The translations under genes were made by a program, and so were the position numbers. Shown here piece after piece: positions 1,920-58,962 of a stretch of 64,000 nt of DNA (positions within the stretch are counted from its first letter, which is position 1; every line of letters begins with the position of its first letter). Source of the stretch: Eledone cirrhosa. Its lineage: Eukaryota. The notes beneath the pieces are model-generated. The model worked only from the letters and a program-made list of their open reading frames with translations, searched no databases and was not told where the DNA came from. The stretch covers positions 393,328,001-393,392,000 of the forward strand of contig OZ024740.1 of assembly GCA_964016885.1 (NCBI GenBank), read 5' to 3'.

Positions 1920-4238
1920 ATCATCATCATCATCATCGTTTAACGTCCATCTTCCACGCTTGCATGGGTTTGGACGGGAATTTTCCCACTTGAGGCAAGA
2001 TTGGTTGTCTTGCTCGTATAGGACTGTCTGGTGGGTTTTCTACGGCTGGATGCTCTTCCTAACGCCAACCACGTTTACAGTGTGGACTGGCAGGTTTTTA
2101 CCGTGTTACCTACACGACCACATTACAGCGTGGACTGTGTGTTTTTTGTTGTGACACCTACACAACCTCATTTATTTCGGACTGTATGTTGTGGTACCAA
2201 CATAACTTTACATCGAAAGGGGTGGTGTGGATGGGGTGGGGGTAGTGGGACGAGGGTGTATTTTTGTTAAGAGGTGCCTACTGACTGTAGGTTTCGCTTT
2301 GTAATTAGGCAAGGCGGGTCTTCTGTATTACTGTGTAGCGCCATAGATCTCGGTCCAGTGACATTGTCTTGGAGAGGTGTAAGTGTGTGAGGTCGGAATT
2401 TATCAAGTCGTCCCATGTTTTTCTGGGTCTGCCTACTCCGTGGCTACCGTCTATTTTTATCGCCCTGCACTTTTTTATACAGCTGTCGTCTTTCATGCGA
2501 ATTACATGACCATACCAACATAGTCTTCTCTCGAGTAAAAAATATCTGATCCCTCTTATTCCTAATTTCTTCCTTAGTTCATTTATGATTTGCCATTCAC
2601 ATATATTACTATTACACATCCAACGGAGCATGCAAGCTTCGTTCCTCTCCAGTCTGCGTATATCCTCTGCACACAATGCCCAAGTCTCACTGCCATGTAA
2701 CATTGCTGTTCGTATGCAGGCATCATACAGCCTGCCTTTCATTTTTAGAGAGAAACCTTTAGCGGCCAATAGTGGTATAAGCTCTCTGAACTTTTTCCAT
2801 CCTGTTCTGACTCTAGCTACTGTACTTTCAGAGCAGCCTCCACCACTGCTGATTTTGTCACCCAGGTAACGGAAGGTGTCCATTATTTCTATAGAACCAT
2901 CTGTGCAATGGAATGAGCTAGTATTCTGTGGGCACTTGCTGCTACTTATTGCACCTGAGCACCGGCCACATATAAAATCTATATTCTTAGTTAGCTTACC
3001 TGTGATCCCACTACATCTTTTATGCACCCATACTTTGCATTTGGGACATAAAATGGAGTTTCTGCCTACTCCTTTCCTACACACTGAGCATGGCCATTTC
3101 CCAGATGGGACCAGTGCCCTATTTTCCTTCCTACAAACTAGAACTTTAGTCTTAGACAGGTTAATTTTAAAGCCTTTTGACTCTAGGCCATGCTTCCATG
3201 TTTGGAATTTCTTCTCTAGTTCAGCCATTGATTCAGCTATGAGCGTTAGATCATCTGCGTATAGGAGTTCCCATGGGCAGCCGGTCTTGAACTCCTCTGT
3301 TATAGCCTGAAGGGCAATAATAAATAGGAGGGGGCTAAGGACAGAGCCCTGAGGAACACCAACTTTTACGCTAAACTCTTCACTATATTCGTTGTTAATT
3401 CTAACCTTGCTGACTGTTTCTTTATACATGGCTTGTATAGCTCTGACAAGCCATTCATCAACACCTAGTTTTCTGAGAGCCCACCAGATAATGGGGCATG
3501 GGACTCTGTCAAAGGCTTTCTCCAAGTCAACAAAAGCTAAGTATAGGGGTTTACTTTTAGCCAGGTACTTCTCCTGTAGTTGTCGTACAATGAAAAGAGC
3601 GTCTGTGGTACTTTTACCTGACACAAACCCGAACTGCATTTCATCTAGATCAATTCGCTCTCTGATTAGTTGCGCTATTACTTTTTCTGTGACCTTCATG
3701 ACCTGGTCGATTAATTTAATGCCTCTATAGTTTCCCCTATCTAGGGCATCTCCTTTACCCTTGTAGCAGTTAATGATGATGCTGCTACGCCAGTCCTTCG
3801 GAACGACCCCATTCTGTATGACTTGGTTTACTATCCGGGTGACCATGGTGTGTCCCACCGTTCCAGATGCTTTCAGCATTTCAGCAACTATTTCCGAAGG
3901 CCCAGCCACCTTGCCTGTCTTCATATCTTTGATCGCCTTACTTATTATACTACCTTCAACTTGCACTGCTGGTCCCTCTATTGGATCGATGTGGGGGAGA
4001 CTGTCTTTCTCCCATTTATTCTCCTCATTTATTAGCCTTTTGTAGTGACACTTCCAAGATACCTTCTTATCAGCGTCAGTGATGGCAAGTACACCATCAT
4101 CATTAAGGACTCACTTCTCCCCGACAATATCATGGTTTTCCTTGACACATTGCCTAGCATCCTGAACACCTCACGTTTTTGGTCCTCGCGTTGTAGAACA
4201 TGCTTGAACTTTCTTTCCTCTGCTTCCCTTCTTGTGAA

Positions 4239-4317: not shown

Positions 4318-4597
4318 TAAAGTCTGTCTTATGCCAGAAGGCTCATTTGGCCGGTGCTTATCCCGGTTTCATGGCGTGAAGCAACTGAGGGTACAAGACT
4401 CCCCCCTGGACAGGACGCCAGTCCATCGCAGGGTTAAACCTCCAGCTATTGCTGGTACTCATTTTCAGCTGAGTATACTGGAGCAATGTGAAATGAAGTG
4501 TTTTGCTCAAGAACACAACACGCAACCCAGGAATCAAGCCCACAACATTATGATCGTAAGTCCAACACTCTTACCACTAAGCCACGTGCCTCCACCG
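4318..4597 (-). mobile_element. tRNA-derived SINE (V/CORE-like central domain)
   Basis: Minus strand GGTGGAGGCACGTGGCTTAGTGGTAAGAG..GGCTTGATTCC, then TTCTTGAGCAAAACACTT and CCCTGCGATGGACTGGCGTCCTGTCCAGGGG; inside (TA)n. Domain name is from recall. Confidence 0.75.
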
Positions 4598-6933: not shown

Positions 6934-7082
6934 GGAGGTGAGTTTTATTGTAGTACAATAAATTATCCCACAGGTTTGTTCTAATTGTTCTTCTTTGAAC
7001 TTAAATTTATGGTTTGGTACTTCTGAAGTGATTGGCTGGTTCAACAAATTGAATAAGAAAAATAAACAAAAATTTATTCAAT

Positions 7083-8695
7083 TTGATATTGCCAGCTACT
7101 ATTCTTCTATTTCGCCCTCACTTCTCAACAATGCTCTATCTTTACAAATATTCAGACATTACCACAGATGAACTTCACATCATTCTCACTGCACGTAAAA
7201 CCATCCTAGAGTTCAACAATCAATATTGGACCAGAGCTGATACCTCTAACAACTTTGACATCACAATGGGAACATCCGATTCATCCCAATTGACAGATTT
7301 AATTGGTATCTTTATTTTGAACTCTTTCAATCGGAAAATTCCTCAACTTCGCGGTGGAATTTATCGTGACGATGGACTCTTTACTATCTTAAATTGCAAC
7401 ATATTTAACCTTAATATTATTAAGAACAATATACATAATCTCTTTAACCAACATAACTTAAAAATTGAATTTGATAACAGCATCAAACTAGCTAATTTCT
7501 TGGATGTATCTCTTAATCTTGACACTGGCCTATATTACCCTTACCATAAAAACAATGAGAACCTAAATTATGTTAATTTTAAATCTAACCACCCTACTAA
7601 TATTAAGAATGCTATAGTTAGTAATATTGGAAAAAGAATATCTAACCTATCTTCTAATAAAAACATCTTTGATGCTAACGCCAATTACTATAATAACGCG
7701 CTTTCTAAACCCGGTTATCCTGAAAAAATCAAATATAGTAAAGAAACAAATTCTAGAAGATCTTACAGTAGAATAATTAATCATGATCATTCCAATAGCT
7801 TTAATAAAAGACCTAGATACAAAAACATAATCTGGTATAATGCTCCTTTCGCCATCTCTATTAATAATAATATTCCTAAATTATTCTTTAGTGCCTTAAA
7901 TAAATGCTTCCCTCCCTCACATATCTATAGTAAAATATTTAACAAACACACTATAAAATTCTCCTATTCGACCTTCTCCAACATCTCCAACATTATCTCT
8001 ACAATAAAATACTAAATACTAAATCTCTTCCTTCCAACACTGAATATCATAATAATAGTAATAGTACTCCCGACGTCATTGTTAACTCGAGGCTAATTTC
8101 TGCAAACCCAAATACAACGTCAAACGCAACTTCGCTAAATGTTCTTAATCCCATTCTAAATCAAGAAACTATTATTCCTATCGTAAATAACTTCTCCAAT
8201 CCAATCTCTTCTATAGATAACACTAGGTCACTTGTTAATAACTCTGTTAATCTCTCTAATTGCAATTGCAATTGCCCTGTTAAAAATAAATGTCCTCTCA
8301 ACAACCATTGTCTTGAAAAAAACTTAATCTACGAATGTAAAGTTATAACTGACACCAATTCCTTTACCTATTTTGGCTCCACTTCCACCTCCTTTAAAGC
8401 TCATCTTTATAATCATCATTCGTCTTTTAAATACCAACTTAAAAGAACCAACACGGCACTCTCAGAACTCATATGGTCCTTGAAAGACAAACATATTAAC
8501 TATAACATCTCTTGGAAGAAGGTTTCTTCTGCTTCTCCATACTTGAACAGTTCACTATCCAAGACATGCAATCTCTGTTTATGTGAAAAATTTACCATTA
8601 TATCTAATTTAAATTCTATAATAAATAGACGCACTGACTTGTTTTCTCTCTGCTTGCATAAATTCCACAGAACATTCCATAAAGTATACAGCTAA
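7083..8695 (+). pseudogene. PLE RT + GIY-YIG endonuclease ORF broken by frameshifts
   Basis: ORFs 7083-8015 and 8480-8695; the endonuclease frame extends upstream of 8480. Confidence 0.85.
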
Positions 8696-9659: not shown

Positions 9660-9730
9660 TATTTTATCTGACGAAAACGCAAATGTTATTGCATGATGAT
9701 ATTTGTTTTTGAAATGCGCATAATAAAATA
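9660..9730 (+). ncRNA. Type I hammerhead ribozyme in PLE 3' end
   Basis: TATTTTAT-CTGACGA-stem II-GAAA-TGCGCA-TA-ATAAAATA: 8-bp stem I, palindromic stem III. Confidence 0.88.
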
Positions 9731-34370: not shown

Positions 34371-34395
34371 TCTCTCTATATATATATATATAAAG

Positions 34396-34750
34396 AAAAA
34401 GGGATGAAATCGAAAATGCAACTGAAGTCTTATTTTTTTTTAAAATATATATATTTATTTGGTTCCTTTACCGGTTTCGCAGTTCTTCTGCTTTTCAAAA
34501 GGTGAGTTGAGATGGAGGGTCTGTGGTTTTTCTCACAGATGTGAGAAAAACCACAGACACTCCATCTCAACTCACCTTTTGAAAAGCAGAAGAACTGCGA
34601 AACCGGTAAAGGAACCAAATAAATATATATATTTTAAAAAAAAATAAGACTTCAGTTGCATTTTCGATTTCATCCCTTTTTGTTTAGACTTCCACTCGTG
34701 TAGGACACCTCGGTTATTTTTCATTTTGTAAAAAAAACCTCACTTTCTAA
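34396..34750. mobile_element. Fold-back (palindromic) HHR-bearing mini element
   Basis: Near-perfect palindrome 34396-34681 centred near 34538, with a ~70-bp unique right extension; in (TA)n. Confidence 0.85.
34575..34612 (+). ncRNA. Minimal type I HHR with U3-A8 core (mirror copy at ~34465-34502 on minus)
   Basis: CCTT-TTGAAAA-GCAG AAGAA CTGC-GAAA-CCGG-TA-AAGG. Confidence 0.75.
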
Positions 34751-34755
34751 TATAT

Positions 34756-34816
<61 letters not shown>

Positions 34817-41294: not shown

Positions 41295-42293
41295 CTATTG
41301 GGGTGATAACCCGTTTAGTTTTGGTTTAAATTTGTTAAGGAATAGATTTTCTTTGTTTATTCTTTGTTGTTGTGTGAACGAATCTGAGCACTTGTAGAAG
41401 GGGAAGATTTTAAAGTTGGGTAGTGTCATTCCTGCGCAGTTCGCAATATGGCTGCTCAAGGGGATTTTTCTTGTGTTAGCGTCCCGGATTTGTTGGCGGT
41501 GGATGGTCATTCTTTTGCGTAATGAGGTGCCCGTCTGTCCTATGTAGTTGTGTTTGCACCCACCGCAAGTTATTGCGTAAATCAAGTTCTCCGAGTTGCA
41601 GGTGAAATTGTTTTTTACTGTAAATGTTTGGCCATCTTTGAATGTAAATGTTTGTCCTTCAGTGAGGTAGAGGCACGTTCCACAGTTTGTTCTACCACAT
41701 TTGGTAACTGTAGGGTTGAGGATTGGTTTGGGTATATTTGGTCCAGTGAGAATGCGTTTAAGTGATTTGGGTTGTCTTTTACTTTTAAGGATCTTGTGTG
41801 TTTCAAGAATAGACTTCATTTTTACATCTTTAAGTAGGATGGGGAGGTTTTTGTGTAGGTGATCAAACATTTCGGTATTTCTGGGGTTGAAAGTGGATAC
41901 ATATGGCAGGGTGTTGAGTGTGGTTTTCTGTTTTGGATTGTTAAGTTGATGGGGATTTAGGTGTTTTGCCCTGTCTATTCCATTGTTGATTATTTCAAGT
42001 GGAAAGGCTCTTAAGATAAGGGTGTCTTTTAGTTCCTTTAGTCTTTGCTCCCGTTTAGGTGGATCTGATACTATGGTACATATACGTTTGGCCAAATTGT
42101 AAGGAATGTTAAGTTTTGTATGTTTTGGGTGACTTGATGTGAAAAAGAGGTATTGCTTGGAATCTGTGGGTTTATAGAATATATCTGTATCTAATTTCCC
42201 GTCTATTACAGAGATGAGAATATCCAAGAAGGCTAATTCCTTAGGATTGGATTCCATTGTGAATTGTATGTTATTATCTATGTTGTTTATCAT
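41295..42293 (-). CDS. PLE RT thumb + GIY-YIG endonuclease (partial)
   Basis: 332-aa ORF with a CCHH-type GIY-YIG domain. Confidence 0.88.
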   Translation of the reverse strand: MINNIDNNIQFTMESNPKELAFLDILISVIDGKLDTDIFYKPTDSKQYLFFTSSHPKHTKLNIPYNLAKRICTIVSDPPKREQRLKELKDTLILRAFPLEIINNGIDRAKHLNPHQLNNPKQKTTLNTLPYVSTFNPRNTEMFDHLHKNLPILLKDVKMKSILETHKILKSKRQPKSLKRILTGPNIPKPILNPTVTKCGRTNCGTCLYLTEGQTFTFKDGQTFTVKNNFTCNSENLIYAITCGGCKHNYIGQTGTSLRKRMTIHRQQIRDANTRKIPLSSHIANCAGMTLPNFKIFPFYKCSDSFTQQQRINKENLFLNKFKPKLNGLSPQ

Positions 42294-42300
42294 GTTTTTA

Positions 42301-42349
<49 letters not shown>

Positions 42350-42697
42350 GTATATGTATGTATGTGTGGATGAAGGTATGTGTGTATATATAGGTGTAAG
42401 TGCACTAAATCCTTTTCTATCACGCTCCACTCTCCTACCCATCACAGGAAGATATGTGTGTGTATATTGCTTCCACCACCTCACTGACCAGCAGCTGGCG
42501 ATTGCTAAATCTGACCTTTATAAAATAACCCACACCCCAAATAACTTCTCATTCACTACCAGAAAGGGACACAGCAGTCAACCTGTTGTTGCTACCTAGA
42601 TGAAAACTGCTATGAAATCCCACAATGAATTTTATACTTGAATTTTCAAGTCTCAAATTTTAACTCTTCGTATTATTAATTTTTCTTAATATTAATC

Positions 42698-58590: not shown

Positions 58591-58962
58591 CAATTCGATT
58601 CTCTAGAAAGGCCGGAAGATAGGTAAATATTGCTGATGAGATGTAACAACATCGAAACTAGTCCAATATTCCTTGTCTGGCTTTCTGGAGAATAGAGGAA
58701 AGGTGTTTCCTCAAAAACCAGTATGACTCTAAAAACCGGTTTGTCTGTGTGTTTACATACAGAATAGCTGGACACTCACAGTAAAGTGACCAGTGAAAAA
58801 CTCGGTACATCTACATATGTACACGTGTGTGTATTCATATGCATACTAGTATTTCAGTATACATATGTGGATGTACATTTTTAACTTAATTGTTTAAGCG
58901 TCAGTCATACAAAAGTGAGTTACAAACAAAACGAAATTTAATTTCGTTTCGTTATTTGTTTT
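58591..58962 (+). mobile_element. Non-coding HHR-bearing mini element in (TA)n
   Basis: ~370-bp complex sequence bounded by microsatellite; contains a perfect HHR. Confidence 0.8.
58626..58670 (+). ncRNA. Type I HHR, canonical GUC site
   Basis: AATATTG-CTGATGA-GATGT AACA ACATC-GAAA-CTAG-TC-CAATATT. Confidence 0.92.

What the first reader, a model, noticed from the sequence alone, without database searches (positions are those of the whole stretch)
34396..34750. 286-bp palindrome with an HHR in each arm carrying a U3-A8 compensatory core
Seen: near-perfect fold-back; each arm has CCTT-TTGAAAA-GCAG/CTGC-GAAA-CCGG-TA-AAGG. Known: HHR C3 and G8 form a tertiary Watson-Crick pair, so UUGAAAA replaces C3-G8 with U3-A8, an uncommon natural variant missed by CUGANGA searches. 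Read-through transcription would give a ~140-bp hairpin dsRNA, a possible siRNA source.
Basis: partly seen in the sequence, partly recalled or inferred. Interest (0 to 1): 0.7.

Follow-up and report, generated by a model that had tools for sequence, protein, structure and literature searches.

The report
Head-to-head Penelope stub, U3-A8 hammerheads
This palindrome is two back-to-back end pieces of a very abundant Penelope-like jumping gene, each with a hammerhead-shaped RNA motif whose U3-A8 core is family-wide and already in print for other Penelope elements; the fold point likely marks where the element's RNA starts, and this copy is predicted to be inert.

Summary
Observation confirmed: a 286-bp palindrome (34396-34681, one mismatch, 4-nt loop) with a type I hammerhead layout and TTGAAAA core in each arm, on opposite strands. 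It is one stub of a high-copy Penelope-like retroelement (reverse transcriptase plus GIY-YIG). U3-A8 is the family state: 12,444 exact genomic matches; no C3-G8 among 70 non-U3 copies. U3-A8 cores and opposite-strand hammerhead pairs in Penelope terminal repeats are published (PMC4209133). In 113 sampled ends, 61 stop about 30 nt after a TATA-like box (likely RNA start); 36 of 37 head-to-head pairs join a tailed to a tail-less end. Few ends (6 of 113; about 1% genome-wide) stop at the predicted cut site, so templates were likely mostly uncut. The arms were likely made in one insertion by priming both strands of a (TA)n target at two adjacent start sites on one RNA; cDNA fold-back is the rival. 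Read-through would bury the ribozyme in a hairpin; cleavage, transcription and siRNAs are untested. The scan noted such stubs before in other genomes and on another piece of this one. Side finding, also noted earlier by the scan: two ORFs joined by a likely -1 frameshift.

The parts
34377..34392 (.). (TA)n target microsatellite, left flank, at the end of another dispersed repeat
   Evidence: sequence; the flank upstream matches 5 other places in the window
34389..34537 (-). Left arm: tail-less pLTR end of the Penelope-like element (element positions 1-148), inverted; the last TATA is shared with the target
   Evidence: 98.7-99.3% to the pLTRs of full-length copy L074; 40 of 113 sampled ends stop here
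34465..34502 (-). Type I hammerhead motif, U3-A8 core, predicted cut between 34469 and 34468
   Evidence: descriptor scan
34536..34541 (.). Head-to-head junction with 2-nt microhomology; corresponds to the likely transcription start (30 nt after a TATA-like box that this copy lacks)
   Evidence: 61 of 113 sampled 5' ends lie at element positions -5..+9; TATA-like box at -32
34536..34756 (+). Right arm: pLTR end with tail (element positions about -3 to 216)
   Evidence: 97.7% to L074; 67 of 113 sampled ends stop here
34575..34612 (+). Type I hammerhead motif: stem I 34575-78/34609-12, core 34579-85 (U3, A8), stem II 34586-98, GAAA, palindromic CCGG 34603-06, GUA triplet, predicted cut 34608/34609
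   Evidence: descriptor scan, folding
34689..34750 (+). Tail, on this arm only; in tandem copies it runs straight into the ORF1 start
   Evidence: exact 20-mer counts: tail 8,729 against 17,875 just upstream
34751..34812 (.). (TA)n target microsatellite, right flank

Best explanation
The feature is one short head-to-head insertion of a high-copy Penelope-like retroelement whose terminal repeat carries a hammerhead motif with a family-wide U3-A8 core; it likely arose when both strands of a (TA)n target primed reverse transcription at two adjacent start sites on one uncut element RNA and both copies ran to the RNA's 5' end and were joined there. Shown: family membership, core state, the two fixed 3' ends, the fixed fold point, and the tail/no-tail pairing. 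Inferred: the fold point is the transcription start; the template was uncut (both arms run 70 nt past the cut site); both arms come from one event; two-site priming (by analogy to the anole element in vitro). Predicted: the family ribozyme cuts slowly and only as a dimer or with protein help, further braked by a U3-A17 pair; this copy has no promoter and would bury its ribozyme in a 141-bp hairpin, so it is likely inert.
For: The arms match the repeats flanking an RT + GIY-YIG reading frame in tandem copies. Core counts: 12,444 / 70 / 54; 89 of 94 sampled whole cores are TTGAAAA; no core difference at >=10% in contigs of 4 public runs from 3 studies. 3' ends: 67 tailed, 40 tail-less, 6 other of 113; 36 of 37 classifiable pairs are mixed (p 3e-10 against 50%); the same two ends followed by (TA)n appear as loose ends in the runs. 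5' ends: 61 of 113 at -5..+9; the exact 20-mer count falls from 17,875 downstream of the ribozyme to 3,544 upstream of the fold point. Arms are coupled: where the tailed arm reaches upstream of the start, the partner does too in 8 of 9 pairs, otherwise in 0 of 27; subfamily sites agree in 60 of 63 comparisons, 51-64% expected. The tail-less arm reaches further 5' in 7 of 36 pairs and carries the reading frame in L034 and L035, which plain fold-back cannot give. Literature: two adjacent RT start sites define the tail, both strands are extended, and uncut RNA is the substrate (PMC11167929).
Against: No RNA or biochemical data, so the start site and the cleavage rate are inferred. Fold-back also explains most counts: unpaired ends are mostly tailed (28 tailed, 4 tail-less, 5 other of 37), in 27 of 30 abutting pairs the tailed arm is as long or longer, and longer tail-less arms could be later deletions. 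Arm agreement could reflect gene conversion. The sample covers only the first 26 Mb of one contig, some fetched stretches were short or one-sided, and BLAST end points are uncertain by a few bases. The tail (about 62-68 nt) is longer than the published 30-40 nt. A weak excess of ends at the cut site exists (231 against 149 and 139 in two control windows).
Confidence: 0.6

Rival explanations
1. Same element and same fold point, but the second arm is made by fold-back: the first cDNA, primed at the tail end, reaches the RNA 5' end, self-primes at the near-palindromic CAGATGTG, copies itself, and is resolved at the inner TATA (self-priming and endonuclease resolution as proposed in PMC3846280 and PMC8557442).
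For: 36 of 37 mixed pairs; unpaired ends mostly tailed; 19 of 30 abutting pairs have both ends within 10 nt, 5 of them away from the start site; the tailed arm is as long or longer in 27 of 30; the ORF-bearing strand ends in a tail in 9 of 10 long copies with a 3' end seen; passages.
Against: The tail-less arm is longer in 3 of 30 abutting and 4 of 6 spaced pairs and carries the ORF in L034 and L035; in vitro both tail boundaries are RT start sites in a related element.
Confidence: 0.3
2. The palindrome is a functional unit: an active ribozyme pair or a host-used hairpin that yields siRNAs against the family.
For: Very stable hairpin; roughly 2,000-3,000 similar palindromes genome-wide by extrapolation (15 tight pairs among the first 100 rows; 19 pairs among 113 arms), so some may be read through; rotifer Penelopes yield small RNAs.
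Against: The motifs are on opposite strands and cannot dimerise in cis; both stems have probability 0.0 in the read-through fold; the promoter box is cut off; among open frames of 130 aa or more in the window (read by eye) I recognised only retroelement-like or simple ones, so no host transcript is evident; the copy is one of thousands and shows private mutations.
Confidence: 0.07
3. It is a foldback DNA element or MITE, or an assembly artefact, and the hammerhead look is chance.
For: Near-perfect inverted repeat between TA repeats.
Against: The ends are unequal (tail on one side); the arms are the terminal repeats of an RT + GIY-YIG element; junctions differ between copies; the two arms differ at 2 sites; a sister family keeps a C3-G8 hammerhead-like motif at the same distance from its TATA-like box.
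Confidence: 0.02

Closest known systems
Minimal type I hammerheads of metazoan Penelope-like elements, including the U3-A8 variant of Schistosoma mansoni Cercyon elements (Cervera & de la Pena 2014, PMC4209133)
   Same: Type I layout in the pLTR, short helix I, palindromic helix III, G10.1-C11.1 pair, U3-A8 covariation, pairs on opposite strands 100-700 bp apart, mostly truncated copies
   Different: Short 4-bp helix II and no extra base between positions 9 and 10.1; one nearly invariant family with over 12,000 exact cores rather than about 1,300 heterogeneous hits; U3 combined with A17
Endonuclease-bearing Penelope-like elements with inverted 5'-truncated pLTR and one-sided tail (Arkhipova et al. 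2013, PMC3846280; Craig et al. 2021, PMC8557442), Neptune/Nematis type by linker motif
   Same: RT then GIY-YIG, CX4CXXC linker, tandem pLTRs, head-to-head inverted ends, tail at one end, (TA)n targets, TATA/Inr-like promoter in the pLTR
   Different: Tail about 62-68 nt, not 30-40; two overlapping ORFs instead of one; clade not tested by a tree
Poseidon element of the green anole, PAc (Frangieh et al. 2024, PMC11167929)
   Same: Two fixed ends bounding a tail, AT-rich targets, uncut RNA as the apparent template
   Different: In PAc the start sites lie inside the ORF and the core is C3-G8; here both ends lie upstream of the ORF1 start and the core is U3-A8

Membership tests
Penelope-like element (endonuclease-bearing) | Reverse transcriptase followed by a GIY-YIG endonuclease | tested here: met
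   Pfam RVT_1 (29.4 bits, just under the 29.6 cut-off) and GIY-YIG (22.6 and 29.6 bits, cut-off 22.6) in linked copies; 714 homologs at E<=1e-30
Penelope-like element (endonuclease-bearing) | Tandem arrangement giving direct pseudo-LTRs around the coding region | tested here: met
   13 of 30 ORF1-anchored copies have the whole arm plus tail directly upstream of ORF1; both repeats seen in 10 of 12 longer stretches
Penelope-like element (endonuclease-bearing) | Inverted 5'-truncated copy with a tail at one end only | tested here: met
   36 of 37 classifiable pairs; the tail is longer than the published 30-40 nt
Penelope-like element (endonuclease-bearing) | Hammerhead motif in the pLTR | tested here: met
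Neptune/Nematis clades | CX2-5CxxC linker before the endonuclease; (TA)n targets | tested here: met
   linker motif at ORF2 residue 645; ends followed by (TA)n; definition from passages of PMC8557442
Neptune/Nematis clades | Placement by RT phylogeny against named references | not tested
   no named reference set was fetched; clade not claimed
Canonical single-ORF endonuclease-bearing PLE (strict reading) | One ORF | tested here: not met
   ORF1 (400 aa) and ORF2 (771-775 aa stop to stop) overlap out of frame; both unbroken in 5 of 12 long copies, and the overlap is the same in 7 of 7 shown; not filed under this strict form
Minimal type I hammerhead of PLEs | Core boxes with a Watson-Crick 3-8 pair, G10.1-C11.1, NUH triplet | tested here: met
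   U3-A8, G-C at the base of stem II, GUA
Minimal type I hammerhead of PLEs | Short helix I and palindromic helix III for dimer formation | tested here: met
   4-bp helix I (3 bp in a second subfamily), CCGG; the two-strand form is predicted at -11.9 kcal/mol
Minimal type I hammerhead of PLEs | Extra base between positions 9 and 10.1 (common trait in PMC4209133, not part of its descriptor) | tested here: not met
   A9 is followed directly by G10.1
Minimal type I hammerhead of PLEs | Self-cleavage as monomer or dimer | not testable with these tools
   genomic proxy inconclusive: 6 of 113 ends at 69-74, but also 6 at 90-93; 231 against 149 and 139
Hairpin small-RNA locus | Transcription and small RNAs from both arms | not testable with these tools
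   Rfam miRNA matches are all below gathering scores
MITE / foldback DNA transposon | Symmetric terminal inverted repeats independent of an RT element | tested here: not met
   asymmetric ends, arms are pLTRs of an RT element

The most novel reading that the evidence does not exclude
Thousands of such stubs form a genomic record of Penelope integration: a dimeric enzyme primes the two target strands at two adjacent sites of one uncut pLTR RNA, one site per strand, and the U3-A8/A17 hammerhead is a self-braked ribozyme kept for pairing RNAs through its palindromic CCGG or for a late, rare cut (about 1-5% of templates), in a lineage that makes its RT-endonuclease by a -1 ribosomal frameshift.
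Probability: 0.3. Interest if true: 0.55.

Novelty: new member of a known kind. Interest (0 to 1): 0.27.

Why it matters
The value lies in the family as a test bed. About 18,000 ends give a near one-to-one tail/no-tail rule, a fixed fold point and few ends at the cut site, which bear on two open questions: how Penelope elements finish integration, and what their hammerheads do. A single invariant U3-A8/A17 motif is also a clean substrate for testing whether U3-A17 pairing brakes cleavage.

Tried and rejected
(1) Copy-specific decay from CTGANGA: rejected. (2) The A/C difference between arms (34559/34518) as a mark of two templates: rejected; A occurs in 0 of 91 arms of the position-ordered sample, so its frequency among the top hits is query bias. 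(3) Ends at the predicted cut site as proof of cleavage in vivo: inconclusive; 231 against 149 and 139, the controls include small indels (about a fifth of the 100 rows shown), TA microhomology and a length gradient confound, and an equal cluster lies at 90-93. (4) Expression: no RNA holder listed, so no evidence either way; laid only contigs. (5) Strong hairpin or pseudoknot after the slippery site: only weak structures (-9.4 and -5.8 kcal/mol over 90 nt; no pseudoknot candidate in the sister family). (6) My descriptor missed the sister family's motif because of a T-T pair at the base of stem II; it was found by eye. (7) Look-ups of earlier findings by place and by sequence returned nothing. 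(8) Two papers on dimer cleavage and on 3-8 pair swaps were not held; the 2026 retrozyme preprint passages had nothing on this.

Full report
1. Observation. The palindrome is real: 34396-34681, 141-bp arms, one internal mismatch, 4-nt loop; z-score -42.5, with 0 of 200 shuffles folding as well. Each arm holds the motif described, at 34575-34612 (+) and 34465-34502 (-): 4-bp stem I, core TTGAAAA (U3, A8), 4-bp stem II starting G-C, GAAA, palindromic CCGG, GUA triplet. The motifs are on opposite strands. The right arm runs on through about 62 unique bases to 34750, and both ends meet (TA)n.

2. What it is. A search of the window's genome (G000, 3.0 Gb) with one arm found 340 candidates; the 40 scored are 95-100% identical. 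Extending copies led to a unit of about 4.7 kb: terminal repeat, ORF1, ORF2 with reverse transcriptase and GIY-YIG domains, 3' untranslated region, terminal repeat. In 13 of 30 copies picked by ORF1 sequence the whole arm and tail sit directly upstream of the ORF1 start. The window's arms match these repeats at 97.7-99.3%. The linker before the endonuclease has a CX4CXXC motif, which passages of PMC8557442 assign to the Neptune and Nematis clades; I built no tree. Both ORFs are unbroken in 5 of 12 long copies, so the family is young or active (inference).

3. The core. Exact genome counts on both strands: 12,444 for the U3-A8 core with stem II; 70 with another base at position 3, all still A8, so none C3-G8; 54 with U3 and another base at 8. 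Backward-read controls were 0. In a position-ordered sample 89 of 94 whole cores were TTGAAAA. Contigs from 4 public runs (3 studies, 3 organism codes) showed no core difference at 10% or more; three of the runs listed are near-equal in size from one sample and one study could be the source, so this is weak support. A sister family with 49% ORF2 identity has C3-G8. U3-A8 is therefore the inherited family state. It is already published for Penelope terminal repeats, together with opposite-strand pairs (PMC4209133, parts 1-2 of 4 read; its supplements, not seen, may list this taxon).

4. Anatomy of the family's ends. I took the first 100 genomic matches of a 20-mer downstream of the ribozyme (first 26 Mb of contig C1), fetched them all and mapped 113 arms, partners included. 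3' ends: 67 at the tail end, 40 at the inner TATA, 6 other. 5' ends: 61 at -5..+9, 28 further upstream, 6 at 69-74, 18 elsewhere in 10-110. Of 38 head-to-head pairs, 36 of 37 classifiable join a tailed to a tail-less end; 28 are tight palindromes, 19 with both motifs whole and 14 with both arms ending at the fold point, as in the window. Genome-wide 20-mer counts agree: tail 8,729, downstream of the ribozyme 17,875, upstream of the fold point 3,544. The fold point lies 30 nt after a TATA-like box, so it is likely the transcription start (inference; motif names recalled). Extrapolation gives roughly 2,000-3,000 such palindromes; the sampled region may not be typical.

5. How it likely formed. 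Both arms run 70 nt past the predicted cut site, so their template was uncut (inference from the sequence). The arms are coupled: subfamily sites agree in 60 of 63 comparisons, and both or neither reach upstream of the start (8 of 9 against 0 of 27). In the anole element PAc, reverse transcription starts at two adjacent RNA sites that bound the tail, both DNA strands are cut and extended, and ribozyme mutants insert normally (PMC11167929, parts 1-2 of 4 read). Priming of both target strands at the two sites of one RNA explains all counts, including the 7 of 36 pairs where the tail-less arm is longer. Fold-back of the first cDNA (self-priming, PMC3846280 passages) explains most of them too and is favoured by unpaired ends being mostly tailed (28 against 4). 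I give about 0.6 and 0.3; the family assignment itself is above 0.95.

6. Is the ribozyme active? Not testable here. Metazoan Penelope hammerheads cut poorly, and as dimers or with protein (review passages PMC6765202). Here A17 can pair with U3: -6.4 against -4.7 kcal/mol for the monomer and -12.6 against -11.9 for the two-strand form. An analogous C3-G17 trap lowers rate and extent (PMC3884650, passages and Discussion read); the transfer to U3-A17 is my inference. As a genomic proxy, ends at the cut site number 231, about 1.3% of 17,875, against 149 and 139 in two control windows; 6 of 113 in the sample, with an equal cluster in an A/T run. Rare cleavage is neither shown nor excluded. An earlier scan note on another genome reported a pile-up at the cut site (e1-8612152); here the signal is weak. 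For this copy, read-through from either side gives a hairpin in which the ribozyme stems have probability 0.0 (computed for the + strand), and the promoter box is missing.

7. siRNA idea. The hairpin is long enough, and rotifer Penelopes give small RNAs, but nothing here shows transcription of this locus.

8. Novelty and verdict. New member of a known kind. Paper searches returned the known papers above; two relevant papers were not held. I did not find the near one-to-one tail/no-tail rule quantified in the passages read, though 'tail often at one end only' is stated. For the frameshift, a search for Penelope-like + programmed + ribosomal frameshift + slippery found 0 papers and searches found only a figure legend whose clade I could not see and one unread paper. 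The scan's own notes, looked up after I had reached these readings, report the same kind of stub and the same frameshift elsewhere; they are unchecked and add no independent support. Interest 0.27.

Noticed in passing
L074:3231-6694 (overlap 4370-4457); sister family L220, L223: The parent element has two ORFs: a 400-aa ORF1 and an RT-GIY-YIG ORF2 in the -1 frame, with T TTT TTA in phase in the overlap. A sister family (ORF1 28%, ORF2 49% identical) has the same heptamer in phase; the 120 best ORF2 homologs listed are 478-803 aa, none fused. Likely a programmed -1 frameshift; the scan noted this before. The Fig. 1 legend of PMC8557442 mentions an ORF1 set off by a frameshift, but I could not see for which clade.
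   Followed up: partly
L223 and L220-L226, pLTR: The sister family's pLTR has a hammerhead-like motif with the usual C3-G8 core (CTGAAGA), palindromic GTAC and a T-T pair at the base of stem II, downstream of a TATA-like box. So the 3-8 pair differs by two changes between the two families.
   Followed up: partly
L074, about 110 nt upstream of the fold point: Promoter-like cluster in the pLTR: TATA-like box at -32, a CCAAT word and an E2F-like word further up; the motif names are recalled.
   Followed up: no
window 58626-58671: A second hammerhead with canonical CTGATGA core, 7-bp stem I and palindromic CTAG (Rfam HH9 38.9 bits, under the 52 cut-off); a repeat, with 88-96% copies in L125/L126 and L040.
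   Followed up: partly
window 9660-9730: A third hammerhead-like motif (CTGACGA, long stem II, palindromic TGCGCA) ending in (TA)n, downstream of an RT-like frame at 7053-8692; it matches 14 fetched loci, some overlapping. Probably another Penelope family.
   Followed up: partly
window 41298-42404 (-): Fragment of a related Penelope RT-endonuclease, 65% DNA identity to the parent element over 1 kb.
   Followed up: no
rows P0012, P0037, P0041, P0056: Close homologs of this eukaryote-type retroelement protein (45-50% identity) are filed under bacterial symbiont names on short contigs; likely host DNA in those assemblies.
   Followed up: no
window-wide: The open frames of 130 aa or more are mostly copies of one non-LTR RT family plus Penelope fragments, between long (TA)n arrays (read by eye).
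   Followed up: no
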